DNA from: Azolla caroliniana
Taxonomy: Eukaryota; Plantae; Polypodiophyta
Length of the DNA stretch: 64,000 nucleotides
Direction: 5' to 3'
Assembly: GCA_043228905.1 (NCBI GenBank)
Contig: JBHGNT010000011.1
Coordinates: forward strand, 19,158,001 to 19,222,000
The position numbers and the translations under genes are program-made. A model generated the notes under the pieces. The model searched no databases, was not told the origin of the DNA, and saw nothing but the letters and a program-made list of their open reading frames with translations. Positions 34,861 to 64,000 of the stretch are shown piece by piece (the first letter of the stretch is position 1; every line of letters begins with the position of its first letter).

Positions 34861-35022
34861 ATGGGTTTGTACAACAACAAGAACAACACATATCAAGTTT
34901 ATTTGAGACCATTGCCACGGAGGGGCCAAGTAAAGAAGACAATTGTCATGTCATTAGTGCGACAACTCTCTTCCTCTTTTAATCTCCACAAAAAAATGCA
35001 GCCTTCTTCCCCTCCAAATTAA
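34861..35022 (+). CDS. Small protein with PRRGxVK motif, copy 1 (53 aa)
   Basis: MGLYNNKNNTYQVYLRPLPRRGQVKKTIVMSLVRQLSSSFNLHKKMQPSSPPN; TATA CTATATAAAGGG at ~34594; motif shared with two other ORFs in the window. Confidence 0.65.
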   Translation: MGLYNNKNNTYQVYLRPLPRRGQVKKTIVMSLVRQLSSSFNLHKKMQPSSPPN

Positions 35023-36199
35023 ATCATCAACATGAATGATATGTTCACACACTACTAACAATGTAAATAATCATTAATTACCTCATTGTTGATATTAATC
35101 GAGGCATTGAAGTCATGTTTCCTTAGTGGTAAACATAATGGGATCAAAGGTTGAAGCCTTATAAACCAATTTATGCAAATCTTCAGTTGTCATGTATCTC
35201 CCTTTTGCATATCACATCCACTCGTATATGCTTATATATGCGTGTGAGATTATCTAATCCTATGTAAGCATCCTTCTTGTTATATATCTCATCAAGACAA
35301 CAATCAAGTTCTAGCATTAATGTAAATTGATTATCTTTGCCTTGATCAACAATGTCATATAATTATCATTGCTCTTAAAAATACATTAATTTCCAAATGA
35401 TGGAGATATCCAACATGGTTGTGTTGTCTATGCTCTCTCTCTCTCTCTCTCTCTAATGGAGGTATATGGGAATATGGGTGGATGCTTCTGTTTTTGAGCT
35501 CTTGACATATGAATATGACACCTTGCACTCCAAATAATACTAATGTGAGAGCCACATGTACAATTATATGAACATTGAACAATATAATATGCGATCTGAA
35601 TACAACTATCATTGGTGTAACATTCAAATTTAGAGGTGACCTCCCATAGTGATAATAAGGCTAAATATGATCTCATATACTTCCTATTTTTACGATGAAA
35701 GATGCCCAAATTTTCTAGAAGGAAATCATTTGATACATAGATTAGTTAGTAGTCATTAATTATTTTAAAATTCAATTATATTTTGTACTTAATGCCAAAT
35801 TATTCTGTGATAGCTCCAAATTCTTTAAGCCATCGTAATTCACATGCATCAAACGTGTTAAATTTGATCTATCGCTACTTTATGCAAAGAGAAGTTTTAG
35901 TTAAAAAGAACATTACTTCTTTATAGGTCATGCACAACTTTTTATAACTTATTTATATTTATATAAATTAAAGTACTTTGTTTCTTCTACGGGCATGAAA
36001 GAGATGTCATGTGGGATAGTGAATGTAGGTGATGTGTATGAAATGATGACTAGAGACACATGTGAAAGTGTAAGATAAATAAGTGAGATTTCTTATGTAG
36101 ATAGGATAGTCTAGGCAAGGCCTACCTGAGAAGTTCCCACATGCAGTAGAATCAATATGACACGCTCTGTGGGACTGCCCAACGTCCCATCGAATATGG

Positions 36200-36850
36200 C
36201 GGGGGGTTGGCTGCTTGTTGCAATTATGCTAGGTGCAAGGCTCAATCAAGTGGGGAAATATATGTTGGCTATCATGGCAGATTGCAATTGGTAGATACGA
36301 GCATCAGGAGGAGAGGATAACTTTGGTGATAAAAGCACAAGAGGTCTCTTTCTCCTCCAACGACAATGTCCACTCCACTCCTCTTAATGACAAATCTCAA
36401 GAGGTGTTGGAATTGGTCAGCACAATAACTCTTTGGATTTTATGGAAACAACGATGTAGGCGAGTCTTCTCCAACCAAACTGCACATCCAACAAGGTTAC
36501 TGCAAGAGATATGGAGTGAAATTGTAGCCACTCTAAAGAGGCAATATGATGGTCTTAAGGGCGGTTTCGATGGAGTTAAAAGACAACGAATAACCTTCAT
36601 CTAACAATGGTCGTCCTCTCCATTTCTTGAGTCAGTGGGCATCCACATAAGATGGAACTATCGCGTCCCTTCAGGGATTTGTACATAATCGTCTCATTTG
36701 TAAAATTTTATAACTAATGGAAGGAGTTTTATTTTTTTGGAAAAAGAAGAAGAAAAAAGGCTTACTCGAGAAAGGGAATGAGTTTGTGTATATTTTAACT
36801 AATGGAGTATATTCTTGTTTGGAAATAAAATAAATATATAAATAAATAAA
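36200..36850 (+). mobile_element. 5'-truncated LINE fragment followed by a second short LINE tail
   Basis: ELVSTITLWILWKQRCRRVFSNQ...LLQEIWSEIVATL (ORF2 C-terminus); TAACTAATGG...TTTGGAAA tails at 36711 and 36796. Confidence 0.8.
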
Positions 36851-36909
36851 ACTTTTTATTGTGAAAAATGTTTCTTAAAGTATGTATATGGCACTCTTCG
36901 ACTCTTCGA

Positions 36910-37097
36910 GCAAACTTTGCCAGGATCCTAATGCATTGAATACAAGTAATCATAATAACGTTTAATATGTATCACGACATATTAATGAGTGATTCCACAC
37001 TCTTTGGGCAAACATTGCTAGGATCCTAATGCATTGAATACAAGTAATCATAACAACGTTTAATATTTATCACAACATATTAATGAGTGATTCCACC
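36910..37097. repeat. ~99-bp tandem duplication
   Basis: AGGATCCTAATGCATTGAATACAAGTAATCATAA x2. Confidence 0.9.
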
Positions 37098-38629: not shown

Positions 38630-38696
38630 GTTCGGTTTCGAACCCACAACGCAGTGCTTGTAGTGCTAACAACTTACCACTAACGTAAGGTAATTA
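38630..38696 (-). mobile_element. tRNA-derived SINE-like head between two (GA)n tracts
   Basis: Reverse complement AATTACCTTACGTTAGTGGTAAGTTGTTAGCACTACAAG...GGGTTCGAAACC; same family as 30774-31100. Confidence 0.6.
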
Positions 38697-38706
38697 CAAT
38701 AATAAT

Positions 38707-38741
<35 letters not shown>

Positions 38742-40330: not shown

Positions 40331-42559
40331 TAGAGGTTTGCATATTTTACACAAGTTGACCCACTTGCTCAAGCTGGTGATTTTTCTGAATCTCAATTCC
40401 CACCAAAAAGCCCAAATATTTAACAACCATTCCATTAGGGACCCATTGAAAATTAGCATTAGGGCACCAAAGCGGTCATGCGTTTGGACTCATCTAGAAC
40501 CCTCTGCTTTTGTTCCAATTAAATTTCCCTCTTGATTCTTTACAAAATAGCTCAATTCGCCTTTTGGCCTATTGTAAATTAGCTTCATTGCCTTGTAGAT
40601 AGAGCATAGTGTCATCTGCATACATTGAGTCCAACAAATCCTTGTAGGCATGTGGCACAACCAATCTCCTTATTCCTGCATCCGGTCTATTTAAAAAGAA
40701 AGAGAATGCCTCTGAAATAAATAAATAAAGGTAGGGGGCTAACGGGCATCCCTGCCTTACAGACCTGCATAGTGGAATTGGTGGGCCCCGGTGCCCTAAC
40801 ACCAACACCCTACTCAAGCTTCCTTTGTAAAGGTCCAACAGAGCTTATCTCCATTTTGAGGGTAGTTCGAACCTCTCCATGACTTTGTCTAAAAAAGGCC
40901 ATTGTACTCTTTCATATGCCTTCTCAAAGTCAAGCATGAGACATGCAATATGTTGATTGGTTTTCTTTGCCAAGGCAATCACCTCCCAAAAGGTCAACAC
41001 ATTATCAATTATACATCTATTTTCCATTAATCTTGTTTGTCCAACATTAATTAGCGCATGCAAGTGGGCTTTGACCCTCTTGGTCAGAATATTAGCAAAA
41101 ATCTTATAGATTGAGTTGAGCAACGTAATCGGTCTCCATTCCCTCACATTAGTTATTATACCATGTACCTTAGGAATTAGAAATATCAGCCCCTCTTTGA
41201 AATGCTCAAGTAAGCACCCAACATTCCATGCCTCATTTAGACCAACAACCAAGTCAACCTTAATCACTTCCCAAAAAATTTCAAAAAATTCTCTTGATAA
41301 TCTGTCGACGCCTGGACAAGATGTTCTACATATACCCGCCAAAGTGTCTAACACCTCCTCTTCCAAGAGTGGCCTTGCTAAATTAACTTGTGCAACCTCT
41401 GAAATTCTTTGTTGCATTCTCTCCAATACAAGTTTTGCCAGTGAAGGGTGTTCAGGGATATTATAACTAGATGAGAGAAGCCCACTATAGTGAGTTGTGA
41501 CCGCCTCCATGATCTCCGATACATCCTCTGACAGTGAATCATCCTCCTTAATAAGCTTAGGACTGAAGCTACTGTTTGTTCTTGGCTTTTTATACTTAAA
41601 AAATTGTTGGTTCACCTTATCCCCATTTGTGCTCCACCACGTTGTTGAACTCCTAAATAACATATTGTTTCTAGACACAATCAACCGTTGTAGTGTTTCT
41701 TTAGCAGCCTCAAGACCCGATCTAGACCAGTGACACTTGGGATTTTTCTGAAGCATTTTTTGGGCAGCCGCTATCGATCTTCTTAATCTCACTTCTCTTT
41801 CCTTAGTCCTCACAATTCTATTTTTAGTCTCTTCATGCAAATACATTGAAGTTTCAATAATTTTTCTTGGAAGTTTATCAAGTGAACCATAACCAGCTGG
41901 ATTACTTTCCCATATACTCCTTATCTTCCTTCCCACCTCCACATCCTCAAAAAGTTTACTGCTGATCCTTAGGTTACAGTCCCTTTTTTGCCTCATCTGA
42001 TTGACCAACGTAATCTTAACCGACATATGATCAGAGTAAGCCGAACCTGCGATGATTTTAACATTGCTTCCATATTTTTCCAGTTCTGAGCTTATGTATA
42101 TTCTGTCTATGGGAGACATACATAAGCCATTTATATTGCAGCCAGCTCTTGAGAAGCTTAGCGAGGTCCGAGGCTTTTTTAGTACATACCACACATCTTT
42201 CACTCCCATTCTGCCCATCAACAAATCCCATGCAACTAACTGTAACCCCTACATCACCGTATGCATGCCCCCCACCTTGTCCTCTATGTACAAAGTCATG
42301 TTAAAATCCCCTACGAGGATCCACGCATCTGTAATCGGCAGGCCATCGGCCAATTGCCTCCAAAAAAAGGCCTACATCCCTGACGAATTGAACACATACA
42401 CACTTATTATTCCAACGATAGATTGCTACCATTTGACCGTCACATAGATGGCATGTCCCTCCACTATGGTGTCTTGGCCCACAACAACAATATCCAGATT
42501 ATGCGTGATAGATGTACAAACACCCCCTTTTCTACCATGCTCACCCTGAGTTGGGGACC

Positions 42560-42955
42560 TGTTGAGCGGCAAGCTCAAACCGGAGCCGGATCGGCTGAAT
42601 AAGCCGGAGCCGGTAAGCGAGACGGATCGGGCGAAACGGATCGGTATGACGGTGAGCAACCGAACCGGCAAGCAGTGGAGGCCGAGTGCAATCCGTAACC
42701 GGAAGTCCAATTGGAAGCCTAGTATAGGATAGACTACTAGGTAGCTATAGTCTCGTAGTAAGTGTCAGATGCTCGTGTGAGCATTGAAGTACATGGTACT
42801 TCTATCAGTCCCAAGAGGACTTGTATAAATAGTGCTACTTAGCACAGTGTGTATACAGAGTCTATATATAATTTTGAAATTGTGTTCTGCTCTCTCTCTC
42901 TCTCTCTCTTTGTGTTGTTCTCTGTTTTACGCTTCCGCAAACACTTACATTTACA
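42560..42955 (+). repeat. Copia 5' LTR
   Basis: TGTTG...TTACA; TATAAAT at ~42824; followed by the tRNA-iMet PBS. Confidence 0.92.
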
Positions 42956-43049
42956 TGGTATCAGAGCGCGAGGGTTGAGAACCTCTGCTGCAGACATTTA
43001 CTCTTGAGAAGAAAACCCTAACAGGTCGAAAACAGACACAGTAGAAGAC

Positions 43050-46000
43050 ATGGATAGAGGCATGGCCACGTCGCCCCCGGTGGAGAAGCTCGACAGGAGC
43101 AACTACGCATCCTGGTCTTACAAGATGCACCAGTACCTGCTTGGACACGGGTACTGGAGTTATGTCGAAGGAGCGAATGATGCGGCGCCCGACTTGGCAC
43201 ACAAGGACTTCCCGGTATGGGAACAGGCGGCGAGTAGGGTGATGTACTGCTTCGCGTCCAGTGTCGGCGATCAGCTGCTCAGCCACATCCGTGACGCCAA
43301 GACACCGAAGGATGCTTGGGGGAACTTGAAAAAGGTTTTCGCTGCAAGCACCACTGCCCGGAAGCTGCAACTCAGACAGGAGTTGAGCAATGTTCGACAG
43401 AAGAACATGTCCGTGGCAGACTACACGGGCCGGATAAAGGAAATCTGCGACTCACTCGCCTCTATCAATGTTACCGTAGAGGAAGACGAGATGGTGCAGG
43501 TATGTCTCGGAGGCCTGGCGTCCAAGTTTGGAGCGTTCCAGACTGCGGTGTGTACAAGGGAGAATACCCCCTCATTCTTCGACTTACAGTCGATGCTCCT
43601 TGTAGAGGAGAACCACGCCGGTGCATCTACCAATGCATCCCCGGACAGCCGAATGCTATACACGGGAACGGATCGGCTCCGTGGGCGTGGTGGAAGAGGT
43701 GGGTCGGCATGCAATGGAGGCGACCGGCAAGAGCAGGAACGGAGGCACTATGAGCGTGCCGACAGCAGTTCCGGGACTTCCACAAGCAGGGGGAGTCAAG
43801 GCGGTGCCGGAGGCCAACAAGACAAATCCGCTACGGAATTCTGGTACTGTGGCAAAAAAGGCCATAGGGAAAGCGAGTGCTGGAGAAAGCGTGCCGATTC
43901 GGACAAATCCGGATCCGGCAAGACCGGTAAGGATGGCCGACAAAACTCGCACTACGCAAACGGATCAGGAGGATCCGGAACCGGAAAGGCCGGTAAGGGG
44001 CCAGCCTTGGTGATGAATCACAAGGCAAACTCAATGAAGAAGACCACTTCCAAAACGGAGGAAGTATGGTATGTTGATTCCGGCGCGTCGAACCACATGA
44101 CGAGCCACAAAGAGTGGTTCTCCTTTCTGGAGAAACCAGATCAACCAGGAGTAGTCGAAACCGGAGACGACACTCCTCACCCAATCGTGCACGTCGGAGA
44201 AGTCCCTCTAAGCCACGTCGGACAGAAAGGGAAGCTGATGAACGTATTACACGTTCCGACAGTTACGAAGAACCTGGTGTCCGTCGGTCAGATTGTCGAC
44301 TAGGGGATGCAGGTGCGGTTTATGCACCTCGGGTGCTTCATTGAGGATGAGGGCGAAGTCATTGCGCAAGGGCGCAGGGACGGGAGGATGTTTATCCTCA
44401 ACACCAATGACTTTGGCACCGCTCTGTTCACGAAACGACAGAAAGTCGAGTCGGACATCGACCTGTGGCACAAGCGAATAGGCCACGTCAACTACCAGAG
44501 GCTTCAAGACCTGCAAATGAAACAAGTCATTTTCGGTTTGCCAAAGTTCAGCGGCCGGAGAGCTGAAATTTGTGAAGCCTACCAACTTGGGAAGCAACAC
44601 CGGCTTCCATTCCCCACTGAACGGAACCAGAGCCGTAACAAGCTCGATCTCATCCATTCGGATGTGTGGGGACCGGCACAAAGTGTAAGCCTTGGCGGGA
44701 GCCGATACTTCGTCTCCTTCATCGATGACTATACTCGACATACTTGGATCTACCTCATTGAGCGGAAGAGCGAAGTCTTCGATTGTTTCCGGAGCCTCCA
44801 GAAGATGGTGGAACGGGAATCAGAGAGGAAGATCAAATGCCTTCGGTCGGATGGCGGAAAGGAATATTTTTCCGGCCAATTCACTAGTTATCTGCAGCAG
44901 AAGGGAATTCGGCGAGAGTTCAGCTGCAGATACACACCGGAGCAAAACGGTGTGGCTGAAAGGAAGAACCGGACACTCGTCGAAGCGGCAAGGGCAATGC
45001 TGGAGGAAAAGAGCATGCCCCAATTCTATTGGGCGGAGGCGGTCCAGACGGCCGTCTACATACAAAACCGCATTGGTGACAAGGTGTCAGCTCATGAGCT
45101 GTATTTCGGGCGCAAGCCGAACTTAAGACACCTTCGGATATTCGGCAGCATAGCGTATGTGCATGTGCCGGATCAAAAGCGGAGAAAGTTGGATGCAAAA
45201 TCGGAAAAATGCATCCTAGTCGGCAATGCTCAAGAGCAAAAGGGGTATAAGTGCTATAACCCCCGGAAGAAGGAAGTCCGAGTTAGCCGGGATGTCGAGT
45301 TCGATGAATCGGCATCCTGGTACTCCGCACCGACTCCGACTTCCGATCCCGACCCAAGGCCGGAAGATCAGGCCAGTGAGCTTGAATCAGCCCTGGCAAA
45401 GGATGATGAAGCTAGGACTCAAGATGAGAGTCCGGAATCGTTACGGTTGAGTGGACCGAACGAGTGACTGAGTCGGTTGGACCAGTCGGATGAAGAGACG
45501 GCAAGTGGTGGAGACTCTGCCGTGCTCTCCCCGCACAAGGAACCGAGGAAACGGTTCACGCGCAAAGAAAAGGGGAAGAGGAAGATGCCGGAATTCGAAA
45601 TCGGCAACGATGAGTCGGATCGATGCATATCCGACTCCGGAAAGGAGAAAGGCGGGTCTTCGGCAACGAAGATCGAACTGGCCAAGAAGGGCCTCAAATC
45701 AGGTGACGGTGCGTTGCGCCGATCAACCCGTCAGAAGGATCCCGTCATGCGGTACGGGTACAATGAATACATGGTGCATCATTATGCGTACATGACTAAA
45801 GTAACAGAAGTGCGTGAGCCAGAGAGCTACGCAGAAGCGGCAAAGGACGCAAATTGGCGTGCCGCTATGGACGAAGAAATGCGGGCACTCGATGCCAACG
45901 CAACTTGGGACCTAGTTGATCCTCCCCGTCACTGTAAACCGATCGGATGCAAGTGGGTGTACAAGGTCAAGTACAACGCCGACGGTTCTGTTAACCGGTA

Positions 46001-48066
46001 CAAAGCCCGGTTAGTGGCGAAGGGATACGCGCAGACCCACGGAATCGACTACGACGAGACCTTCGCTCCTGTGGCGAAGATGACGACAGTTCGTGTGGTA
46101 CTGGCGGTTGCTGCGGCAAGGGGGTGGCATCTTCACCAGATGGATGTGAAGAACGCCTTCCTTCAAGGAGAGCTTGCAGAAGAAGTCTTTATGACTCAGC
46201 CCCCCGGATTTCAATCGGAGATGAACAAGTCGGCGGTATGCCGACTGAAGAAGTCGCTTTACGGCTTGAAGCAAGCCCCCCGAGCTTGGAACGGGAAGAT
46301 CACGCACCGGTTGCGTAAGCTGGGGTTTGTTGTCTCTAAGTCGGACTCTTCGTTGTTCATCCGGCAAGGCTCTGACGGTCCGGTATGTATACTCTTGTAT
46401 GTGGATGATTTAGTCATCACCGGACCGAGTCTTCCCGAAATCACCCGCGTCAAGTTCCAGTTGTCGAACGCATTCGAAATGAAGGACCTGGGGGACCTTC
46501 ATTATTTTCTTGGGATCGAAGTGATCCTCTCACAACGACATTACGTGTTGAATATGTTGTATAAGTTCGGCATGACGGATTGCCGACCTGTCTCCACACC
46601 TCTAGACCGGAACCAGAAGCTTCGTCCCAACTCTGGACCGGCCTGCAATGAGAAACGGTTCCGACAGGTTGTCGGAAGCCTGGTCTACTTAACCATCACC
46701 CGACCCGACATCAGCTATCCGATCGGCATGGTAAGTCAGTTCATGCAAAAGCCGACCGTGGAGCACCTTCAGTGCGCGCAACGCATATTACAGTATGTCA
46801 GCGGCACTAAGGACCGGGGACTGCTATACCTGCGAGGGATACCCAAAGAGCTTGTCGGTTACACAGGTGCTGACTGGGCCGGCGATGCGTCTGATCGCCG
46901 CTCAACTTCCGGATACATGTTCTCCATAGGTAGCGCGGCCGTTGCGTGGAGCAGCAAGAAGCAGCCCACAATGGCTTTGTCAAGTAGTGAGGCTGAGTAC
47001 CGGGCCGCTACCGTTGCCACTTGTGAAGCCATCTGGCTTCGGTGACTGCTACGAGACTTGCGGATCGAGGTACCGACCTCGATCCCGATTTACCGCAATA
47101 ACATGAGCAGCCTGCAGCTCGCCAGGAACCCTGTGTTCCATGCTCGCACAAAGCACATCGAGGTGCACTACCACTTCGTGCGTGAGCGGTGAAGTTGACC
47201 TACGGTATGTTCATACGGATCGGCAAGTTGCCGACATCTTCACCAAGCCGCTCGGATCGTACAAGTTGCAGCACTTTACCGACATGCTTGGTATTCAGCA
47301 TCTCGACGTGCCACACTTGAGGGGGAGAAGCAAGGGCAAGGGCAAGGTCTCTACCGAAACGGGCAAAGGCAAAAAAACTGTTGAACCCGTCGGTAAGAGG
47401 AGAGCCGGAAGAAGAGGAGACAAGAAGATGAAGGAAGCCGAGTCGACGAAGGAAGTCGACACATCCGAACAGGTCGGAGCAAGCGGCTGTGAAGAAGAGT
47501 TGTGCACTCAGGAAGAGAAGTGCATGCTGCGCGGAGGTCATCACGACGGTACTAACCATGATGCGGAGTCGAATGAAGAATTCGATTTCGGTTCACCAAC
47601 TGAAGAAGCCGAGGGAAGCATGGAGAAGGCCAAGACTCGGAAGTGGTTCGATGTGGTGAGACGCCTGAAGCCGGAAGTCGAATCGGAGTGTACCGATTCG
47701 GACAAGAGCTGGAACGAGTCGGAGACAGCTGACTCGGATCAACAGATGGATCCGGATGAGTCGGATCGACTGAAGGCCAAGGGGACACGGACACAGCGGA
47801 AGTCGATGCCATCGTGGGAGAACCGACGGATCGGCAAGCGCCGGAGTCATAGCAACGTGAGTGTTGAGATGGGCCTATTGAGCAGACATGCCGACCGAGA
47901 GGGTCGAGGCGCGCAGAACCAAAGGGGTCGTGGCAAACGGGACCGGACCGGACGAGGAGCGCGAGCAAGGCGGAGTGACGCCAGGAGAAGTCGGTTGGAA
48001 GAACCGACTGCCACAGAGGTCGACACTACGACCCCACCTCAGGTTGAGCTTGAGGGGGAGTGTTGA
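43050..48066 (+). pseudogene. Copia gag-pol polyprotein, disrupted, with C-terminal extension
   Basis: NYASW (gag), WYVDSGASNHM (PR), LWHKRIGH...HSDVWGP...LRSDGGKEY...QNGVAERKNR (INT), KARLVAKG...YVDDL (RT), ADIFTKPL (RH). In-frame stops at 44301, 45465 and 47043; frameshift at ~47185. Confidence 0.95.
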
Positions 48067-48320
48067 GCGGCAAGCTCAAACCGGAGCCGGATCGGCTGAA
48101 TAAGTCGGAGCCGGTGAGCGAGATGGATCGGGCGAAACGGATCGGTATGACGGTGAGCAACCGAACCGGCAAGCAGTGGAGGCCGAGTGCAATCCGTAAC
48201 CGGAAGTCCAATCGGAAGCCTAGTATAGGATAGACTACTAGGTAGCTATAGTCTCGTAGTAAGTGTCAGATGCTCGTGTGAGCATTGAAGTACATGGTAC
48301 TTCTATCAGTCCCAAGAGGA
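48061..48320 (+). repeat. Copia 3' LTR, truncated to 260 bp
   Basis: Matches 42560-42819 with 4 transitions by eye, then switches to LINE sequence. Confidence 0.95.
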
Positions 48321-51300
48321 TTGCTAATACTCAAGATTCGGTTCACACTCAAATGGTGCTCTTGCAAGAGCAAAATGTCAAGGATCCCCTTAAAGCTCGA
48401 GGATTTGAACTCTTGATAGAAGTTCTTCCTCTCCATTATGCATTTGCTGCCGTCTAGACCATGTATGTTCCATGTGATTAATTTCATGAAATCAATTGTG
48501 AAGTCTCCCAAGAAGGACATAGTCCCTCCCCACGAGTCCATGCCCAAACTCCCTCCCTGATTCTCTCCCATCCTAAAAACATGTCTTTCCTTGTAGCTTC
48601 TTCCATTTCCTCCTCATGGAAGTGTAACACCTCATCGAGGGAGTCTACCAACTCCTCTAGGCATAGTAGTAGTTGCTTTTTAATGCAAGAATGATTGAAA
48701 CTCCCACATATCATTCTAGCATTCATCCACATCACCATCCAATGATCTCCATTCTAGGTGATAGGCAGGTTGTTAAAGTATTTGTGTGCCCTAACTTCTA
48801 TAGAGCTGGAGATCCGTGTCATGTTATTGGTTGAAACCTCTAGGTTTGTTAGATCAAAAGAGATGCCTATAGTAGGCAGCTTGTTTCGTTCAACAATTAC
48901 TACATAAACCCTTAGCCCTAGGGCTTTCCCATGACACAAATCAGTCAGTCTTGTGAGAGCCAGCCGGCTAAACTTATACCCTTGTCAAGCGTGTTCCTTT
49001 CCAGTATTTTTGACCCAACAAATTTAACTGGAACTCTAACATCTGCCTCCATACTTACTTGTCTCAACTCTTGCAACTTCTGAATTTCAAAAGTGATGGA
49101 TAAGCTTTCTTGGCACCTCCTATTGCGTATCCAGTCTTTCATTGCTCTCAATCCAATACTTCCATTTTTGCCAATGGAGGAGGGGGAGCTCATGATAGAT
49201 TCCTGTCTGAGTAATGCACTTTTTAGCAAGACCTCGGGTGTACACGCTATCACCTCTTCAACAATAATTGTCCTTGGATCTTATGTTAGGTCCTCCTCTT
49301 CTTGCAACACTCCAAAACGATTTCACAAATCTACATGAGACGTATCTGTGTTTACTTCTCGTTGCAAACCATTTTTGCATCCCAAAACAAGAGTCCAACC
49401 ATTTGCACCAGTCTTCGTCTTCTCAGCCCCATTGAGGGTACTCGAACTTGTCACCCTTATCGTCTCTTGCTTAGCTAATGGCCTTGTAACCTTCGCCCCC
49501 TTTACATTACTATTGAGATTCCTAGGGCATTCCTTAGCAGTGTGGCCCTTTTTTTTATGATAAAAACATTGGCCAGGTAGTCCTTCATATTCCACTTCCA
49601 CGTTTATCAGTATAGCCTCCACATCATGCACCCTAATTATAGAGGGGAGTGTAGACAAACTTTGCACAAGCACCCTAATCTTAGGGGAGTCTCTGATTAT
49701 GTCTACCATGGTTGCCTTTGAAGGACAAACTGTGCCAATCTTCTCCCCAATATTTTGTATCAAAGGATATAATTGTCGTGGAAGATTAGGAAATACCATA
49801 GATATCACCATGGGATTACCAATTTTCTTAGCCTCATCCATAACATTGAAGTTAGCATGCCACTCCAAACAAAAAGCTCTTCCATATTTGAGCTCCACAC
49901 ATTTCATATCAATAATTTGAGATACATCACTCCCCTCAACCACTTCAATGAGAGAAATTTCGTCCCATATTGACACTCAATTAACTATATATATATATAT
50001 ATATATGCAAAAGTTTCTATACCACGGTCCACTTATACGATTTTGTGCATAGTCCAAAGTATTTAATAAAAGCATCACATCATGTGGATAACAAAAGCAT
50101 AATATTTGCATTCCCAATGGTAACCTCTTAATGCCTTCTTATTTTACAAACTCATTAACCATTTGTATCATTACACCAATGTGTAAGCCAAAGTGTGAGT
50201 GTCCTTGCTTCACGCCAATAATGTTTGTGAACAAAATCTGAAATTCCATATACATATACATATAATGTATACATATACATGTACAAATACGTATGCATCA
50301 TTGCTCATAGATGTATCATGTGACCATATACTCTCACCATCTTAAAAGCTACTCTTATGGCATTATATCATAAGCTTTCTTGAAGTTTACAAGGAATCAA
50401 TATAATAATTTACCATTCAAATGTGTTTCCTCCATTAGGTCTCAAAGGTTGATGAGGTGGCCAATAGTGATTGTAAAGCATGCAGTCTTTTTAATATCTT
50501 CACCGTATGTCATTAGCTTTGTTTCCATTAGAGATACAAATAAATTTGAGATACGAGAATCAACCATGACCGTCCATTAGTTGTGTGCATTATTTATATT
50601 TCCCTCTTTAAGTAAAGGTTTGATCCTATTTGTATTTCTTTATATCACATCGTAGTGCGCAATTGGACTTACAATATATTCAAAGATGTGTTTCTCTCAT
50701 TTATTTGAGCATTTTACTGTTGATACTTTGAAGATATTTGCTTTACAAGTTGCCAATTTGTTTAGTCATATGGATTCATACTCAATTGTAAATAAGGAAA
50801 GGATATGTGAAGGAGAACCATAACTCACAATCGTTCTCATGTTTGATTATTCATATATATTTTTACAAATGATAACATAAGCCCATAAGAGTTAAGTTAC
50901 CATAACTATATGCACATGCTTTATTTTTTCATGAAAAAATATCCTCCATTGGTATTAAAAGTAAAGTGGCCAGAGGCAATATACAAAGTAGCCCATATAT
51001 TAAAAAAAATGTTGTAAAGTAGTGGACGAATGAAGAAAGTACAATGAAACATACCATTCTCTAGATCAGCAAGACGAAGAAGAACACAACATGAGTACTC
51101 CTATGACTTGTTTGTGAATCGTTAAGGAATTCCAAGTGATAGAAACACCATCTTCCAACAACTATATGCACATGTTTTCTCTTAGGTTTGTTAAGATTAT
51201 AGATTAATGTCTATATCAAGAAGAAAATGGGGGCATACATAAACATAAGGAAGTGCATAAATTGAAGAGGCTATAACAAATACATGTTGAAATGCTAGAC

Positions 51301-53356
51301 ATAAATGTGTTTGTGATAAGAATATAAGAAGTATTTGTCTCTTTGGCACTAATGCTAAACCACATGCACATATTTTTTGTGCATACACACCAGTGTAATT
51401 GTTAAAACACGGTCGACCCAAAATACCATGCATTGTTGTCTTCCACTCAAGTTCTCGTAAATATAATTACCCAATACTTATGTTCATTTATTAATTACGG
51501 TGTCATTTTACATAAATACTTTTCTGCATATAGCACTACCTAGTACCATCAATAAAATTGTAAGGAAAACCCACAATAGGAAAGCATTACTTTTATTCAT
51601 CACAAATAATTTCGTTTTGATTCAAGCGCTTAACTTAGATTGGGTATTATAAAAACTCTTTGTAAATTATGTCTTGAGATTAACCACACTAATAATTTGC
51701 TTTTAAGAAAGGCTTAATAAAATGTTCTTTGATATTTATTTTACACAATACGAGGAGTGGAAGTGATAACATTACCCTTTTACATAATGGTTAATAGGAA
51801 GTTGAAGTCTAACGATCACAAATATATATCACAACTTCTTGATAAAGTAACCTTTCCATGGATATTGGAAAGGCATCCATTGTGTCCAAGTTTTTACAAT
51901 CTATAAACATAATATTCATTTTGATATGTACATATACAAATATAAAGGTGTGAAAATTTACATTGTAAAGGGGCAACATACTGATGTTGTTTTGAAGCCA
52001 TTAGCTTTCTTAAATCAATCATTTGTAGGCGTTGAAATTCTCCATTTACTTTGAAATACCAAATCATTGGAGAAAATAAGACAATAACACCAAACACTCA
52101 TGTGCATGAACCTTGGACACAAATAATAATTACAAGAATTTAAATAAATGTAAATTTGCATACCAATTCAAGATTCTAAAGACATAATTACAGATCTCAT
52201 AAAAGTTTAATGATAACACATTTGTATGTGGTCCATCGTACTCTTTATAAAAAGGTTTGGCAATTTCATCATTAGAGATGTTAATCAATCCAATTATTCT
52301 CAAACAATAGCTTAATAGTAGGGTTCTTGTACATTAATGTTGATGTATATTTTAGAGGTGTCATACATCTAATACGTCTATTGATTTTTACATGTTCCTA
52401 ACATTACGAAAATGTCATTGTCATTATTGAAAACATTGATTATAGCTTGGTCAAGGATGACATGCACTCTAGGGGGTATCATATAGGGAATGAAATCCGT
52501 GGCTATGGTGTAGCTTGTGGTTTTTCCTTATGTGGACCTAATTTGGTTTATATGTTGGTGTCGCCACCACACTTATGCTTTACGACTAGCTTTGCGTAAT
52601 CTTTTTTTCTTTATTGAAAAGGAGTGGGTATGTGCAATTATTATTAAAAAGAACAGAAAGGACATACATACAATGTCTACATCTCTAACAATACTTGGAT
52701 AGTCTCAAATTTCATAGAGGAATTTTCAACAAGAATTCTCTACACCATCGATGTCAATTCATAACTTATCATATAAGTTGGGTATGTATGCATGTGTTTC
52801 CCGCCGAATGTTTGAATATGTGACATAATGATGTTACAATTTTTGTAGATGCGTGGATCATAAGTTGATTTGTGCTAAAAAGCCATCATGTTTTCCGTGG
52901 AATGTAAGGCCTCTACCCATATCATGCCAAATGGAACGATGAACTATAGTTAACCTATAAGTTCTTGGAATATGCAACAAGTCTTTGTTGCAAAGGAAAT
53001 GAGATGAACAGTGGCGGTTTATGTAAGATAAATAATAGTATGTGCAATGCTGAGTTGGTGATTATGATAACGTTGATCCATGCATTTTATTGGATAATAA
53101 ACGTTTTCTAAGCACAATGCAAGTTGGCGATGGTTGGTGACATCATTAACACAAATATCATATATGGTAATGTATATAGCATAGACCTTTTTCTTGTGAA
53201 ATGAATATTATATGACAAGGTTACAACATCACCACTTTATTCTTGTATGGAATGTCAAGTCTATATAAGGGCATCTCAAAGAGTGGGATGATGGGAAGAG
53301 TCGGGAAGAACATAAGAGAGAGCCAAGGAGACATCGTAGTAGATAGAAAGAGAAGT

Positions 53357-53593
53357 ATGGAGAATGGTAATGGAACAATAAGCTATGGAGGAGTTAGTAT
53401 TTTAATGGCTAGTAATAATAACAATAGAGCATTGCCAAGAAGAGGGCATGTGAAGAAAGAAATTGCAACAAAGTTTGTGCGTTATTTGAGTGGACGCAAA
53501 ACCTATCCATCCAACTCGAGCAACGAGATGAGATCCTCCACCCCACCCTCCTCGTTATCATCTGAGCCCTCTTATCATTTTCCACCAACTTGA
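53357..53593 (+). CDS. Small protein with PRRGxVK motif, copy 2 (78 aa)
   Basis: MENGNGTISYGGVSILMASNNNNRALPRRGHVKKEIATKFVRYLSGRK...S/P-rich tail; TATA CTATATAAGGG at 53261; purine-rich leader. Confidence 0.7.
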   Translation: MENGNGTISYGGVSILMASNNNNRALPRRGHVKKEIATKFVRYLSGRKTYPSNSSNEMRSSTPPSSLSSEPSYHFPPT

Positions 53594-56587: not shown

Positions 56588-57427
56588 TCTCACAACAATT
56601 TTTTATGGTCCTAAATCTCAGGTTTGAGGATTTTTAAATCAATTACATTTAGTGGCTTAAATATATCCCATTCAAAATCCATTCATGTTACTTCACTTGG
56701 GCTAGTTGGAACGTGGGTGATAAATATAACATTAACATTGTTTGTGTCATCGTTATAGAAGGGGATCACCATTATTAAAAGATTTTGATGGGTATGTTAA
56801 GGAACTTTAAGCATGATTAAGAGATATTGATAACATGGGGTTGGTGATAAAAGAGATGTGAAGTTATATAAGGATGTTGCTTGCCCTACCTTGACTTACG
56901 CGAATTTCTTTTGCCTTCTTACATGTGATATCACTTGGGATAAAGAAACACCGATAGATTAGTTTTGCCTTAGCCATTGGCTATCATTATATTCATAATA
57001 ATCATCGCAACATAGTAGTTAACAACTTGATCGCTATACTCATGGTAATGGTTAGAACATTTCACATGGTAATTTTTGAAGTATTTCACCTAATTGTCAA
57101 TTGGAAAACATGGATTGTAGGAAAGTGGCAAGCATGCCTCAAGGTTAGGTTGTAAACATGCACAATTTCAATATCCTCAAACATATTTGCTCTTGTTATT
57201 CTTGTATGTGGTAAAAAATCCATCCCTTCTTTCTTTTTTGATTCATTATTGTTTTTGGTTTTAGCCTTGACACTACCTCTCATTAGAGAGCTTGCTAAGT
57301 TTCATAAGCAACATAACCTCTTTCCCCATATTTTGTGACGAGAGAATACCTTAATGTTATATTTGGTGTCCTAGATGGATTGGTCGGCCGTGAATAATAA
57401 TAAATATAATTATACATATTTCTATCT

Positions 57428-57730
57428 TGTCCTTTTTGTTTGTTCTAGATACTCTAACATACACTTTTGTGCATGTCATATACCTCATGGGTTGGTTTTG
57501 ATTTACAGGAGATGACAAATTGTTTGTGAGTGTTTATATAGTAGATATTGCAAAATAGGAAGGTTCACATACGATAACACATGTTTGCCTTTTTTGTTTG
57601 TTTCGGATACTCTAACATACATTTTTGTACATGTCTTATACCTCATGGATTGGTTTTGATCTAGAAGAGATATGGCAAATTGTTCGTGAGTGTTTATATG
57701 GTAGATATAGCAAAATAGGTAAGGTTCACA
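57428..57730. repeat. ~157-bp tandem duplication upstream of the peptide ORF
   Basis: GATACTCTAACATACA...CAAAATAGG..AAGGTTCACA x2. Confidence 0.85.
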
Positions 57731-58067
57731 CACACATAATGATAATATTATGCCAACTTTGATAAATGTGAGTTTGAACCATGTGCAACTTCTCAAGAGA
57801 TCTAGTGAAGAAGTTATAGGGTTCAACAATTAATAAAAAAAAGGGTGTGAGAATTTTAGTGTGTCGAGGAATAAAAAGGAATATTGATTGCTTGTTAAAA
57901 GGTAAGAGAAGTCTCGATAATGGGCATTGTTAATGGGTGCCCACACATATTATTCTCATTTTGGACTTTGAAAAGAATAAGTGTGAGTCACCCTAAAAAG
58001 TGATGATATTGTGAACATATAAATATAAGAACATGTTGGAGTGGGAGTGGGAGAGAGACAAGACTAA

Positions 58068-59362: not shown

Positions 59363-59598
59363 TGGTTATTGTTTAGTTATGTAAGTTGTATGTTTGTTCA
59401 TATTTGCCATCACCCAAGTGAGAAGTAATGTGAATTCTAAGTGGTTATTGTTTAATTATGTAAGTTGCATGTATGTTCATATTTGCCATCACCCAAGTGA
59501 GAAGTAATGTGAATTCTAAGTGGTTATTGTTTAATTATGTAAGTTGTATGTATGTTCATATTTGCCATCACTCAAGTAAGAAGTAATGTGAATTCTAA
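59363..59598. repeat. 79-bp tandem repeat x3
   Basis: TGGTTATTGTTTA at 59363, 59442 and 59521. Confidence 0.95.
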
Positions 59599-59975: not shown

Positions 59976-60017
59976 TTCTTCCTAACTAACGGGCAGGATA
60001 ATTTTTTGGAAAAAAAA
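59976..60017 (+). mobile_element. 42-bp ultra-truncated retroposed tail
   Basis: 17-bp TSD GAAACATGACATTACCT (59959-59975 and 60018-60034). Confidence 0.85.
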
Positions 60018-60689: not shown

Positions 60690-60835
60690 TTTATTTTTTT
60701 TATTTTTTTTCCCAAAAAAACACTACTTCGCATTAGTTAGCAAACAAAGTACATCAACGACCAACAAATTTCAGCAAACCTCACTCTGGCCTTCTCGCCA
60801 AAGTGGTCATAGTCCCCACAAATGCCAACAAAATG
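60690..60835 (-). mobile_element. LINE 3'-tail fragment
   Basis: Reverse complement TTGATGTACTTTGTTTGCTAACTAATGCGAAGTAGTGTTTTTTTGGGAAAAAAAA closely resembles the tail at 29163-29220. Confidence 0.75.
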
Positions 60836-61639
60836 GATTATTAACACACTCATAGATCAATTCAAGCAGTATGATACTTTGATATTGAACAATGATTCCT
60901 GATTAGTATCAGAAGTTTCTTGGAGCAAACAAGATCGATAATTTATAAATCAACACAAATTTATGGAAGTGTTGTTCTTATTATTACGAATGGGAATAGT
61001 TCTAAAGCATGATCCCATGCATGCGGTACGTCCATAACACAAACCTGACGATGCATGACCCATTCATTACCATGCTTATGGTACCATCCAAGACACACAT
61101 GACATAGACATTCATCCCATGTGCAACCATGTATTTTCATAATAATAACATTTTCATGGAACATCCCTAAAGCATCCATGAAGTTACATGTGAACATCTA
61201 TATTGTACATTCAATGTCCCACAACATTAATCTTGGCATATTCACACATCTATGGCATACTATGAACATTTATATGCTTGCTTTTCATGGTCAACCATAT
61301 GTTTGTAATCATACCATGGAGTGTGATATTTGCCAATTAATTAAGTGAAACATTGTTGCATTGATCAAATTTGTTGCAAATTTGTATCAATATAGCAGGC
61401 ACAAAAAAAGAAATAATGTGACATAATCAAATCCTTTCAACTATTCTCAATGAATTTCTTTTGATGCTTGTCGTTGAAAGTTTTTGTTGAGTTTTACACA
61501 AAGGTTATACAGATTTCTTGATAGATTGCTTTACGATCAATAGAATGTAATTTTTGTTTTGTTTTAGAATTGTCTTTTATAAGGCAATGCCAAAAAATTT
61601 AACCCCAGTTCTCGAAAGTGAATGCCATTCATTTAGGAG

Positions 61640-62050
61640 CAAAATATAATTGTTTTTTCGATGGGAGTTTCATGCCATCTGGGACAAAGGAATATTTTAT
61701 AAATGGATTTATGATATGGTGGATTGGTTCTACTCTATACCGAAGTATCTATTTAAGCCGACAATTCGAATTGGAAAGTGCCTCATTGCCGAATGGTACG
61801 TTTTTTATGTATAACCTTAGGGCGTTTTATTGATACTAATGTAGTATCTTTTTTAGAAAAGAAATATATAATTGTGTTTTTATAAGTGTTTTTTGGTAAG
61901 GTGGAGTGTTTTTACTCCATACCGACATATTCATTTAAGTTGACAACTATAACTTGAAAAGGGGGAGGCAACTAATATGTATGTAAAGAATTTTCTTGTA
62001 TAGGCTCAGGATGGTTTCTTAATACTAATAGTATCTTTCTAGGGGAAAAA
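61640..62050 (+). mobile_element. Two adjacent truncated LINE 3' ends related to the 7645-7922 family
   Basis: GGTGGA.TG.TT.TACTC.ATACCGA..TAT..ATTTAAG blocks and TACTAAT..GTATCTTT tails at ~61835 and ~62023. Confidence 0.7.
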
Positions 62051-63755
62051 ATGGTTGGATATTTGCTATGATTGGTGAATGAAGAAGGAAACTCATGCAT
62101 GATCTTCACCTGAAAAGAAAGAATCATAAAAACACGTTAGTTATACCATGTTAACGTATTTGGTAGGGCAAGAGCTTATGAACATACATGCAATAATTTT
62201 GTAGACTATATCAATATGTTGCTAATATTATGTTGGACGACATGTTTGCTTTTTTATTATGCCTCTCAATTAAAGTGGAACTTGTCTTTCTACAATTCGT
62301 AGTAAAAATGTGTTGTCTCAACTCAGTTGATCCCTTTGGTCGATAGATGAATCAATTTAGTATTAATTAATACAAAATGCTCGAATATGTTTAGGTTTCT
62401 GAAAGATAGAAGTCACAAAGTCTCTAGTAACATAGAAAAAGTGCATTCCGATGTGAAGAGAATATGTTATCGTGCCGTACAACACTAATACAAGATCTAT
62501 CTGACTTTCACACATTTTGATGCATACTAAAAATATTGCCATTTTCAAGATCTAATATTTGGAATGCCATCATTAAATGATTATGAAAAGGACTTTGTTA
62601 TAATTCCATCAGTATGTTCATTGCTATGTACATTTACATGTTTATGCGATAAAGGATGAAATATCAATCAAGTAAGGGACGCCATTAATAATTAACTATA
62701 GGATTGTTTTGGCAAGGCCCTCATTTATTCTAGACAATAATAACAAGTTTTTATCAATGATTGGTTTGAAAATATTGTACATTCTCAACATAAAAGTTTG
62801 TGTAGGTGATTCCATTACTATCGGAATGGTGAGATTTTCAAAGATTGGGTTATAAGATAAAGAGAGTTACTTTCTGTAGTCCATAAGCTCAGCATAACAT
62901 AATTAGCCTATGAGGTTTAATATAGTGGAATCGAAACATGTCGGGAAATAGGCAATACACGTAAAGTAAAGTGGTATTATTCCCTCGAATTATACAAGCA
63001 ATATATGTTTTGACAGCTTTTCATATGTATTGTGTCCATAGAGTATTTAACAAATTTGATGATGAAATGATGGTAACTCTTCATATTCCAAAAGTCACAA
63101 CATTTGTCACATTTCTATTAAAAATGTTAAATGTTTGAAGGTACTTCTAATAGAGCTGAATGAAGATATGAGGATCAATAAAATGCTAGTAAAGTTGAAG
63201 TAGAAAAAGACGTGGTCAAGAGGTAAATGGGGATTATTGCCCATTATATTGTCACAAGGACAAGGAATATGTAATGTAATAAGTAATAAGACAAGGAGTC
63301 TATACATTATGCCATTACACAATAATGGACTTATTGTCATGGTATTTTATAAAAGGATGGGTTTCCTAACTTCTAATGGTGGATATCATCATGAACTCTC
63401 ATTGTTTGATGAAGCCTTGTTGGTGGGTTCACTCATGGATATGTGGAATAGATTTCAAATACTAGCTCATGTGTGGACAAAATAGCATCTTAATCATCTA
63501 TCAATATCAATGCTTATTGATTGCCAACAAGTGATGGACTTGGTGATAGTTAAGATACATAAGGACAAAGTGTCTATATGAGGGCGAAAAGGCACAACTT
63601 CCGGGACATGTGGCTTTTCTACAAAGTAAATTATAAAAGGTGTTCGACTTCAAAAACAAGAGTTAAGCTATTAGATAGATCTAGAGAGGGTACTACATTA
63701 CTAGAGTGTGAGAATATTAAAGAGGAAGTCACATATACAAGGAAGAGGTTGAGAG

Positions 63756-64000
63756 ATGGAATATAACAAAGTTTCTAAGGAAAACCAAGAAGGGGAGAAA
63801 ATGAACATCATGATGAGATCAGTGACACCAAGGAGAGGGAGTGTGAAGCGAGATGTAGTGGGAAAGCTTATGCGCAATATGTCTTACAATTTGTTGTGTA
63901 TTCCTAGCAAGAGCTCAAGTTCAAGTTCAAATAGTAACCGTGGAAGCTCCTCTTATTCTTCTTCTTCTCCTCTTCTAGATATATCTAATCCTTCTTTTGC
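63756..64000 (+). CDS. Small protein with PRRGxVK motif, copy 3 (runs off the window)
   Basis: MEYNKVSKENQEGEKMNIMMRSVTPRRGSVKRDVVGKLMRNMSY followed by a Ser-rich tail, no stop before 64000; TATA TATAAAAGG at ~63632. Absent from the ORF track because it is incomplete. Confidence 0.7.
   Translation, partial: MEYNKVSKENQEGEKMNIMMRSVTPRRGSVKRDVVGKLMRNMSYNLLCIPSKSSSSSSNSNRGSSSYSSSSPLLDISNPSF

What the first reader, a model, noticed from the sequence alone, without database searches (positions are those of the whole stretch)
34861..64000. Hidden cluster of three diverged microprotein genes sharing a PRRGxVK-helix motif
Seen: three intronless + strand ORFs (34861, 53357, 63756) align as LPRRGQVKKTIVMSLVRQLS / LPRRGHVKKEIATKFVRYLS / TPRRGSVKRDVVGKLMRNMS. 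Hydrophobic positions are spaced like an amphipathic helix. Each has an Asn/charged N-terminus, a Ser/Pro-rich tail, an upstream TATA box and a purine-rich leader. Codons differ (CCA CGG AGG GGC / CCA AGA AGA GGG / CCA AGG AGA GGG) and the flanks do not align. Inference: conservation is at the protein level, so this is an old tandem family spread apart by TE insertions, probably intracellular short-motif regulators. I recall similar PxRGxIK small uncharacterised proteins in seed plants but cannot verify this; function is unknown.
Basis: partly seen in the sequence, partly recalled or inferred. Interest (0 to 1): 0.8.

Follow-up and report, generated by a model that had tools for sequence, protein, structure and literature searches.

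The report
Unnamed land-plant microprotein family, tandem trio
These three tiny genes are real, diverged members of an unnamed protein family found from mosses to grasses and cotton, often in tandem rows, whose one conserved part, a basic Pro-Arg-Arg-Gly arm followed by a short predicted helix, likely docks onto one conserved partner inside the cell and would damp or redirect it.

Summary
The three ORFs are there (53, 78, >=81 aa; the third runs off the window). A profile built without their orthologues ranks them first to third in the window, above 100 of 100 shuffled windows; there is no fourth copy. RNA or presumed-RNA contigs cover A and B, unspliced; C was not tested. The family is land-plant-wide, not only seed-plant: 337 clusters at 50% identity, with members in peat moss, Ginkgo, conifers, monocots and eudicots, labelled hypothetical, no Pfam or PDB match, and no paper on it in four motif searches. 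Tandem rows recur (five copies in a moss). The core P[RK]RGQ[VI]KxxI is near-invariant (dN/dS 0.06-0.10 in moss and grass copies) but A's own constraint is weak (0.55-0.62) and B and C replace the conserved Gln. Not TE-derived, no signal peptide. Likely mechanism (inferred): a disordered protein whose basic arm plus helix folds onto one conserved partner; it resembles kinase pseudosubstrate and 1-5-10 calmodulin-binding segments, but no partner is shown. A recalled link to Arabidopsis At1g32920/ACRE65 stayed inconclusive. The scan's notes held no look-alike on other DNA.

The parts
34595..34602 (+). TATA box of gene A (TATATAAA; a CCAAT word lies 24 nt upstream)
   Evidence: Sequence; kept in orthologous locus L002; contigs of runs X7 and X4 begin at 34640 and 34649 while DNA run X2 goes on upstream (weak hint)
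34640..34860 (+). 5' leader of gene A (about 220 nt, unspliced); two upstream ATGs (34728, 34755) are not kept in orthologues
34861..35022 (+). Gene A, 53 aa, canonical family member (core RPLPRRGQVKKTIVMSLVRQL at 34906-34968)
   Evidence: leave-out HMM E 8.5e-9; score 44.9; orthologues L001, L002 keep length and stop; covered by X4, X7, X15 without joints; AF2 helix 23-44
40845..42248 (-). LINE-type reverse transcriptase fragment between A and B
   Evidence: PF00078 E 2.7e-14
42560..48320 (+). Ty1/copia retrotransposon between A and B; LTRs 42560-42819 and 48061-48320 are 98.5% identical; coding region broken by stop codons
   Evidence: (gag, integrase, RVT_2)
53262..53269 (+). TATA box of gene B (TATATAAG)
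   Evidence: Sequence; contigs of four runs begin at 53304-53342 (weak hint, runs chosen with this gene, no DNA run laid)
53357..53593 (+). Gene B, 78 aa, divergent member (His for the conserved Gln; core 53426-53488); in-frame ATGs at 53252-53291 lie upstream of where the contigs begin
   Evidence: core 5 synonymous / 0 replacement, flanks 6 / 8; E 3.8e-4; score 29.1
63632..63638 (+). TATA-like site of gene C (TATAAAA); a B-like TATA context also at 63572-63585
   Evidence: not tested with reads
63756..64000 (+). Gene C, 5' part (81 aa, runs off the window), most divergent member (Ser for the conserved Gln, Val for Ile; core 63816-63881)
   Evidence: orthologue P0002, 72 of 81 identical, 104 aa; E 5.4; score 19.2 against a null maximum of 17.0 in 100 windows

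Best explanation
The three ORFs are tandem paralogues of an unnamed land-plant family of about 50-110-residue proteins without signal peptide, whose single conserved element, a basic arm R-x-x-P-[RK]-R-G-Q followed by a predicted four-turn helix with a hydrophobic stripe, likely folds onto a groove of one conserved intracellular protein and would block or redirect it. Shown: the genes, the family, its range, the near-invariant arm, purifying selection on the core, tandem rows, no signal peptide or membrane segment, no long homologue. Predicted: helix from the Gln onward with low-confidence flanks. Inferred: the flanks are disordered and only tune stability or location (many tails carry S/T-P sites); the invariance from moss to rice means one conserved partner surface; the proteins act in amount, which tandem copies raise. 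The partner I think likeliest is Ca2+/kinase machinery, because the layout (basic residues three and two places before a non-phosphorylatable residue, then a hydrophobic and a basic residue, running into a 1-5-10 hydrophobic helix) is that of kinase regulatory segments that are both pseudosubstrate and calmodulin site; copy C carries Ser at that place and would be a substrate-type variant. I give about 0.45 to the docking inhibitor/adaptor mechanism and about 0.25 overall to the Ca2+/kinase partner.
For: Column conservation over 203 distinct cores from 196 of 197 proteins: P 99%, R/K 98%, R 100%, G 100%, Q 91%, V/I 100%, K 97%, I 99%; large hydrophobic residues at +13 and +17 in 93%; mean net charge +5.7; everything outside is variable, tails 3-72 aa. 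dN/dS 0.10 in 9 moss cores, 0.06 in 5 grass cores (pooled pairs, not independent). AF2: one helix 23-44, pLDDT 85-90 in residues 21-40, 53-69 elsewhere. 0 of 108 short members have a signal-like N-terminus, 8 of 108 a membrane-like 19-mer, none of the window copies. 58 of 139 tails hold S/T-P, 28 of 139 an SGYxSD-like word. Motif classes over 194 cores: [RK][RK]G[^ST][VIL][RK] 183 against 0.6 shuffled; 1-5-10 spacing 145 against 76 shuffled (class definitions recalled). CDPK autoinhibition by a pseudosubstrate segment: PMC10020633, passages and reference list.
Against: The motif-class tests were chosen after seeing the motif, so their enrichment over shuffles only restates its conservation. 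A conserved Gln is not what pseudosubstrates or calmodulin sites need (established knowledge), and calmodulin sites are usually degenerate, not invariant. Copy C fails the 1-5-10 pattern. No sequence or profile match to any solved kinase or calmodulin target. The helix is not significantly amphipathic in the three window copies. A's orthologues show weak constraint (dN/dS 0.55, 0.62; three changes inside its core across L001 and L002, and Leu18 to Ser just before it). No protein-level evidence that any member is made.
Confidence: 0.45

Rival explanations
1. The core binds nucleic acid or chromatin: the Arg-Gly arm would insert into a minor groove, RNA or the nucleosome acidic patch and the helix would pack on a neighbouring protein.
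For: Invariant P-x-R-G and net charge about +6 to +8 in the window copies; small enough to enter nuclei; AT-hook and arginine-anchor motifs are short and Arg/Gly/Pro-rich (recalled).
Against: The AT-hook core RGRP (recalled) is absent: +4/+5 are Q and V/I; the conserved stripe of large hydrophobic residues points to a protein surface; no Pfam hit of this kind.
Confidence: 0.15
2. The polybasic arm plus helix is a membrane-binding or organelle-targeting element, and the proteins act at an anionic membrane.
For: Basic, acid-poor core with a predicted helix; moss members are Ala/Ser/Arg-rich throughout, like targeting peptides.
Against: Membrane and targeting helices conserve composition, not exact residues, whereas six positions here are 97-100% fixed; hydrophobic moments do not exceed shuffles.
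Confidence: 0.12
3. The proteins are leaderless precursors of a danger-signal peptide (PROPEP/systemin-like): damage would release the conserved 20-mer, which a receptor kinase senses.
For: No signal peptide, one conserved stretch, tandem rows, Arg just before the core in 69%; the unverified lead At1g32920 is wound-induced within minutes (PMC2039767, passage and supplement row).
Against: The conserved stretch is internal, with tails of 3-72 aa, while Peps sit at the C-terminus and differ between plant families (recalled); near-invariance from moss to rice is unusual for such ligands.
Confidence: 0.1
4. The family is real, but one or more of these three copies is losing function (A relaxed, C drifting), so the cluster is a birth-and-death array rather than three specialised proteins.
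For: A: dN/dS 0.55-0.62 and core changes in orthologues; C: 9 of 81 residues differ from its orthologue, three inside the core, and its core ranks in the lowest 1% of the family; no indel in A's coding region is unremarkable (about 1.5 expected at the flanking rate).
Against: A keeps frame, length and P-R-R-G-Q-V-K-K-T-I in two orthologues and is covered by three RNA(?) runs that were not chosen with it; B's core has 5 synonymous and 0 replacement changes against 6 and 8 outside (Fisher p 0.045); C's Ser is kept in P0002 and its core changes are conservative.
Confidence: 0.15
5. The motif is a chance or transposon-derived repeat with no gene behind it.
For: The genes lie among retroelements.
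Against: Chance excluded; the ORFs lie outside the copia element and the self-repeats, carry no TE domain, are covered by transcript-like contigs and have 337 clusters of relatives.
Confidence: 0.01

Closest known systems
Unnamed plant 'hypothetical/uncharacterized' proteins: e.g. rice Q5VS61, Cryptomeria SUGI_0024750/60/70, Ginkgo Gb_14118/14119, Brachypodium BRADI_1g65831/65841, cotton ERO13_A05G164200, Sphagnum jensenii unnamed products; ESM Atlas clusters of 59-77 Streptophyta members without Pfam
   Same: Same core, size, lack of signal peptide and tandem habit.
   Different: The window copies share Lys/Arg at +7 where the family has mostly Ala or aliphatic residues (Lys 4 and Arg 0 of 194 cores), and B and C replace Gln (His 1, Ser 0 of 194). 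No function is on record for any of them in what I could search.
Regulatory (autoinhibitory/calmodulin-binding) segments of CDPK, CCaMK and CaMKII; PKI and PKA-RI pseudosubstrates
   Same: Basic pair, small residue, non-phosphorylatable residue, hydrophobic residue, then a helix with 1-5-10 spacing (pattern counts; the reference motifs are recalled; CDPK pseudosubstrate inhibition per PMC10020633, passages).
   Different: No sequence or profile similarity found; free-standing genes; prolines before the arm and a conserved Gln; binding and inhibition untested.
Plant motif-only small regulators in intronless tandem arrays (VQ proteins, SAURs, DVL/ROT4; recalled)
   Same: Short, intronless, one conserved motif in variable flanks, lineage-specific tandem expansion.
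   Different: No Pfam match to any of them; different motif.
microProteins sensu stricto (LITTLE ZIPPER, miP1a/b; recalled)
   Same: Small single-module proteins that would act by competitive binding.
   Different: No larger multidomain protein carrying this module was found (2 hits among 7993 candidates, both look like read-through or fused gene models; weak evidence).
At1g32920/At1g32928 and tobacco ACRE65 (recalled lead)
   Same: Small unnamed early stress-response genes; At1g32920 is a rapid wound-response gene (PMC2039767) and a CAMTA1-dependent drought-recovery hub (PMC12397292, passage).
   Different: Membership not established: no sequence was available; one primer frame fits helix positions +8..+15 best but no better than 8% of random 8-mers.

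Membership tests
Unnamed P[RK]RGQ[VI]K-helix land-plant family (defined here) | Core P-[RK]-R-G-x-[VI]-K with hydrophobic residues at +9, +10, +13, +14, +17 | tested here: met
   All three copies; leave-out position scores 44.9, 29.1, 19.2 against null maximum 17.0 and next window hit 7.6; columns
Unnamed P[RK]RGQ[VI]K-helix land-plant family (defined here) | Gln at +4 (178 of 194 cores) and Ile at +9 (99%) | tested here: inconclusive
   Met by A; B has His, C has Ser and Val (P0002 has Ile); HMM E-values 8.5e-9, 3.8e-4, 5.4. The reference set was gathered with A-like seeds, so divergent forms are under-sampled
Unnamed P[RK]RGQ[VI]K-helix land-plant family (defined here) | Short, unspliced gene in a same-strand tandem row | tested here: met
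   No joints (A, B); rows of 4 on one contig and 5 with an overlapping locus in moss-like loci; adjacent locus tags in Cryptomeria, Ginkgo, Musa, Brachypodium
microProtein sensu stricto | Module shared with a larger multidomain protein | tested here: inconclusive
   Longer-protein search gave only P0067 (short member with a long extension) and P0068 (member fused to an oxidoreductase model); the tool calls such a blank weak evidence
Secreted peptide precursors (CLE/CEP/PIP type) | N-terminal signal peptide | tested here: not met
   0 of 108 short members with a hydrophobic 10-mer (KD >= 2.0) before the motif (a simple hydropathy test, not SignalP)
PROPEP/Pep-type leaderless precursors | Conserved active peptide at the C-terminus | tested here: not met
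   Core is internal; tails beyond it 3-72 aa, median 27
Ca2+/calmodulin-binding proteins, 1-5-10 class | Hydrophobic anchors at 1, 5, 10 in a basic helix | tested here: met
   145 of 194 cores against 76 shuffled; A and B yes, C no; 1-5-8-14 and 1-8-14 patterns are below shuffle level
Ca2+/calmodulin-binding proteins, 1-5-10 class | Ca2+-dependent binding to calmodulin | not testable with these tools
   Needs a binding assay
IQ-motif proteins | [FILV]Qxxx[RK]Gxxx[RK] | tested here: not met
   0 of 194 cores
PP1-docking proteins (MyPhoNE, RVxF) | RxxQ[VIL][KR]x[YW], or RVxF | tested here: not met
   0 of 194 for each within the core; the first six positions of MyPhoNE fit 169 of 194 but the aromatic residue is missing (motifs recalled)
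Kinase pseudosubstrate inhibitors (PKI, PKA-RI, PKC, CDPK junction) | Basic residues at -3/-2 and a non-phosphorylatable residue at 0 followed by a hydrophobic one | tested here: met
   183 of 194 cores; A and B yes, C has Ser at 0 (pattern chosen after seeing the motif)
Kinase pseudosubstrate inhibitors (PKI, PKA-RI, PKC, CDPK junction) | Competitive inhibition of a kinase | not testable with these tools
   Needs kinase assays
Transposon-derived ORF | Lies in, or matches, a repeat or TE protein | tested here: not met
Known folds | Match to a solved structure | tested here: inconclusive
   A single helix cannot be placed (best Z 3.4, none >= 5)
At1g32920/ACRE65 group | Sequence homology | tested here: inconclusive
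   Only two 25-nt primers were available; best frame p 0.08

The most novel reading that the evidence does not exclude
Land plants have carried, since mosses and vascular plants split, an overlooked family of free-standing kinase-regulatory segments: PKI-like microproteins that inhibit a basophilic or Ca2+-dependent kinase (and may be released by calmodulin), amplified in tandem in every lineage, with this array holding both inhibitor-type copies (Gln, His) and a substrate-type copy (Ser in RRGSV).
Probability: 0.15. Interest if true: 0.85.

Novelty: new variant of a known kind. Interest (0 to 1): 0.5.

Why it matters
A 10-residue motif kept almost unchanged from peat moss to rice and cotton implies a conserved interaction that has not been named in the literature I could search. 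The family has no Pfam model, is often missed or fused by gene callers (23 of 196 retrieved proteins hold two or more cores, most likely merged neighbours), and sits in tandem rows that hide single-gene mutant phenotypes. One pull-down with the core peptide and three point mutants would identify the partner. The natural Gln/His/Ser series in this cluster offers ready-made variants. The genes themselves are ordinary-looking and the family is already in databases as hypothetical proteins, which caps the score.

Tried and rejected
Complex prediction of A (residues 10-46) with a calmodulin and four Ca2+: verdict 'no answer', score 0.02 against a mark of 0.34, alignment not used, controls not folded; the calmodulin was a stand-in from a giant-virus contig (L031, confirmed as calmodulin). 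It says nothing for or against binding. A PP1-like gene was also located (L032) but not folded: one job only, and the PP1 motifs failed. Pfam: no hit above cut-off for the three ORFs, 7 first homologues or 36 aligned members. PDB by sequence: 0 hits with the full profile, one chance hit at E 1.9 with the core; by fold: none, best Z 3.4. ESM Atlas: only unnamed Streptophyta clusters (scores 0.86-0.87 for A are leads only). Upstream ORF in A's leader: both ATGs are ATA in L001 and L002, rejected. Longer B starts (53252-53291): upstream of where four contigs begin, not preferred; absence of cover upstream of A and B is only a weak hint. Fourth copy or pseudogene in the window: none (frameshifted remnants would be missed). 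CAMTA, W-box and G-box words upstream: no clear enrichment. Synteny with the ALYREF-like gene: no moss or grass locus matched it (loci are short). Viral hit L033: motif in an alternative frame among phage tail genes, chance. Prokaryotic genomes were not scanned (searches found no usable pattern). Profile comparison of C with A3 (96%) is circular because A3 holds C's orthologue; not used. ACRE75/ACRE180 (PMC7821246, passages and supplement rows), PmACRE1 (PMC11479228, first part), Os06g0133500 (PMC6888222, passages) and ACRE65 (PMC3095340, passages): no sequence seen, so no link made. The citrus 'AT1G32928' supplement search gave nothing (PMC5705785). No whole genome was held, so copies beyond 64000 and elsewhere could not be counted. 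My notebook's figure of 29 looked-up clusters was a miscount; the calls give 27.

Full report
OBSERVATION. The three reading frames and the quoted cores are in the sequence: A 34861-35022 (53 aa), B 53357-53593 (78 aa), C from 63756 to the window's end without a stop (81 aa). PRRG.VK appears 3 times in six frames against 0 in 120 Markov sequences; of 2 gapped 7-mers shared by three or more of 222 ATG-ORFs it is the only one that is not low-complexity, and 0 of 80 null windows gave such a motif; 0.0015 are expected per window. DNA likeness between the three loci is limited to the cores and a weak 14-nt match at the TATA sites of B and C. Leaders are purine-rich (0.67, 0.78, 0.70 against 0.505), TATA-like words lie 267, 96 and 124 nt before the ATG, but 7-31% of random 260-nt windows hold such a word. 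The window is eukaryotic (spliced ALYREF-like gene, copia and LINE elements); earlier scan notes call the genome a probable fern (not tested by me). No whole genome was held.

TRANSCRIPTION. Runs were found with gene B. Four of them (X15 on record as RNA and from a relative about 94% alike; X4, X7, X10 RNA by guess) cover B from 53304-53342 onward, with no joint; that cover is by choice. Gene A was not used to choose runs, yet X4, X7 and X15 cover it (X4 in one contig 34649-35264; X7 from 34640 to beyond 35420), without joints, while DNA run X2 spans the whole 1.6 kb. Contigs cannot show strand, start or level; that they begin 40-80 nt after the TATA words is a weak hint.

FAMILY. The three-sequence profile found 7 proteins among 111 candidates, the ten-sequence profile 60 among 1492: Sphagnum, Ginkgo, Cryptomeria, Taxus, Carex, Musa, Ensete, Canna, Oryza, wheat and relatives, Brachypodium, Hibiscus, Gossypium. 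48 of the 60 carry a source name; these are hypothetical, uncharacterized, unnamed or a gene id, one with an automatic 'Secreted protein' label. The exhaustive HMMER scan of 1.84 billion representatives gave 337 clusters at E <= 0.001, 150 listed; 127 of the 128 new ones show the motif by pattern. Of 27 clusters looked up, 20 bear a name, all hypothetical/uncharacterized or a gene id, all plants; the other hits were not checked for taxon. No Pfam, PDB or fold match; ESM Atlas neighbours are unnamed Streptophyta clusters. Over 203 distinct cores: R(-3) 69%, P(0) 99%, R/K 98%, R 100%, G 100%, Q 91%, V/I 100%, K 97%, I(+9) 99%, large hydrophobic at +10 76%, +13 93%, +14 72%, +17 93%; median length of 139 single-core proteins up to 115 aa is 74. 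These figures lean on the pattern used to pick cores and on A-like seeds.

TANDEM HABIT. Moss-like loci hold 4 same-strand copies on one 21-kb contig (L005 and L022) and an overlapping locus adds a fifth (L024), spaced 4.7-9 kb. Adjacent locus tags occur in Cryptomeria (3), Ginkgo (2), Musa (2), Brachypodium (2), and 23 of 196 proteins hold two or more cores, which I read as merged neighbours (inference). In the window, a copia element (42560-48320, LTRs 98.5% identical) and a LINE RT fragment fill about 7 of the 18 kb between A and B, with further LINE-like frames that had no Pfam hit; the 10 kb between B and C holds short dispersed and tandem repeats but no TE protein that I could identify. 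Synonymous sites of the cores are saturated for A-B and A-C (0.81, 0.95) and 0.37 for B-C. The three share Lys/Arg at +7, rare elsewhere, which suggests a local expansion in this lineage (inference; no tree was built, the core is too short).

ARE B AND C MEMBERS? With the window's own orthologues left out, an HMM of 194 cores gives A E 8.5e-9, B 3.8e-4 and C only 5.4. A position-score matrix of the same cores gives 44.9, 29.1, 19.2; the next place in the window scores 7.6 and the best score in 100 Markov windows is 17.0 (mean 7.1). So all three pass, C narrowly; B and C lie in the lowest 1% of the family. No fourth copy.

SELECTION. Family cores: dN/dS 0.10 (9 moss) and 0.06 (5 grass), pooled pairs. 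B: differences in two related contigs are 5 synonymous and 0 replacement in the core, 6 and 8 outside (Fisher p 0.045; one site is counted in both contigs); P0001 and P0008 match its core 24 of 24. C: 9 of 81 residues differ from P0002, three conservative changes in the core. Against my reading, A is only mildly constrained: dN/dS 0.55 and 0.62 against L001 and L002, with changes in and just before its helix; coding divergence 5.0-5.7% against 5.2-8.8% in flanks; 0 indels in 159 nt against 20 in about 1960 nt of L002 flank, which is not significant.

STRUCTURE AND MECHANISM. AlphaFold2 with 36 sequences predicts one helix (23-44), confident in residues 21-40 only. No signal peptide in 108 short members; 58 of 139 tails carry S/T-P sites and 28 an SGYxSD-like word. 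I commit to a docking model: a disordered protein whose arm and helix fold on one conserved intracellular partner and block or redirect it (0.45). The likeliest partner class is Ca2+/kinase machinery (0.25 overall): 183 of 194 cores read as a pseudosubstrate and 145 of 194 have 1-5-10 spacing (76 in shuffles), while IQ, MyPhoNE and RVxF patterns fail (definitions recalled, chosen after the fact). CDPKs are held off by such a segment (PMC10020633, passages). C has Ser at the phospho-acceptor place. The conserved Gln is not explained by this model. Rivals: nucleic acid or chromatin binding 0.15, decaying copies 0.15 (not exclusive of the others), membrane binding 0.12, leaderless peptide precursor 0.10.

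LITERATURE. Full-text searches for the motif found nothing on this family: PRRGQIK 0 papers, PRRGQVK 0, six fragments 16 papers, 14 listed, none on plant small proteins by title and abstract start, six further fragments 91 papers, 40 listed, likewise, 51 not seen; a keyword search gave one review, listing only. Subscription papers, figures and preprint supplements are not searched, so a description may exist. From memory I suspected Arabidopsis At1g32920/At1g32928 and tobacco ACRE65. At1g32920 is wound-induced (PMC2039767, passage and supplement rows) and CAMTA1-dependent (PMC12397292, passage); it is listed without function in PMC3410891 and PMC4819186 (passages). The only sequence within reach was a primer pair: one frame places best on helix positions +8..+15 but scores no better than 8% of random 8-mers. 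The link is open; if it holds, the family is an early stress-response family and somewhat less new.

VERDICT. Observation confirmed; interpretation partly supported. Three real, diverged tandem members of an unnamed, Pfam-less, land-plant-wide microprotein family with a near-invariant basic arm and helix; mechanism inferred, partner unknown but directly testable. Novelty: new variant of a known kind (motif-only small plant regulators). Interest 0.5.

Noticed in passing
window 12192-15231 (+): Spliced ALYREF/THO4-like gene: N-terminal [10 protein letters not shown] and RG repeats, RRM pieces at about 13900-14700, C-terminal FoP_duplication domain (PF13865, E 1.5e-6).
   Followed up: partly
window 42560-48320: Young copia element (LTRs 98.5% identical) with stop codons between gag, integrase and RT frames; it appears to sit inside a minus-strand LINE (RT at 40845-42248, LINE-like frames at 48266-49976 without Pfam hit). 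No clear target-site duplication was seen.
   Followed up: partly
window 13127-13298, 15935-16324, 17527-17696, 23586-23808, 28182-28639, 36901-37096, 57427-57733, 59363-59598: Many local tandem duplications of 75-230-nt units in non-coding DNA.
   Followed up: no
window 34593-34607, 53259-53272, 63572-63585: All three genes have a similar TATA context, CTATAT[A/G]A(A)GGGC, possibly a remnant of the duplicated promoter; in C it carries a G and a second TATAAAA follows at 63632.
   Followed up: partly
window 34728-34766: 12-codon upstream ORF in the leader of gene A; its ATGs are not kept in L001 or L002.
   Followed up: yes
proteins P0005-P0196 (tails): 28 of 139 single-core members end in a TP..SGYxS[DE]-like word, and a grass subgroup ends in RRV[VA]P[RG]G; both look like phosphorylation or degradation signals.
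   Followed up: no
L031:759-1208 (+); L032:451-1407 (-): An intronless, near-canonical calmodulin gene and a PP1-like phosphatase gene on two giant-virus contigs.
   Followed up: partly
P0068: A Hibiscus cannabinus gene model joins a family member to a zinc-binding oxidoreductase; probably an annotation merge of neighbours.
   Followed up: no
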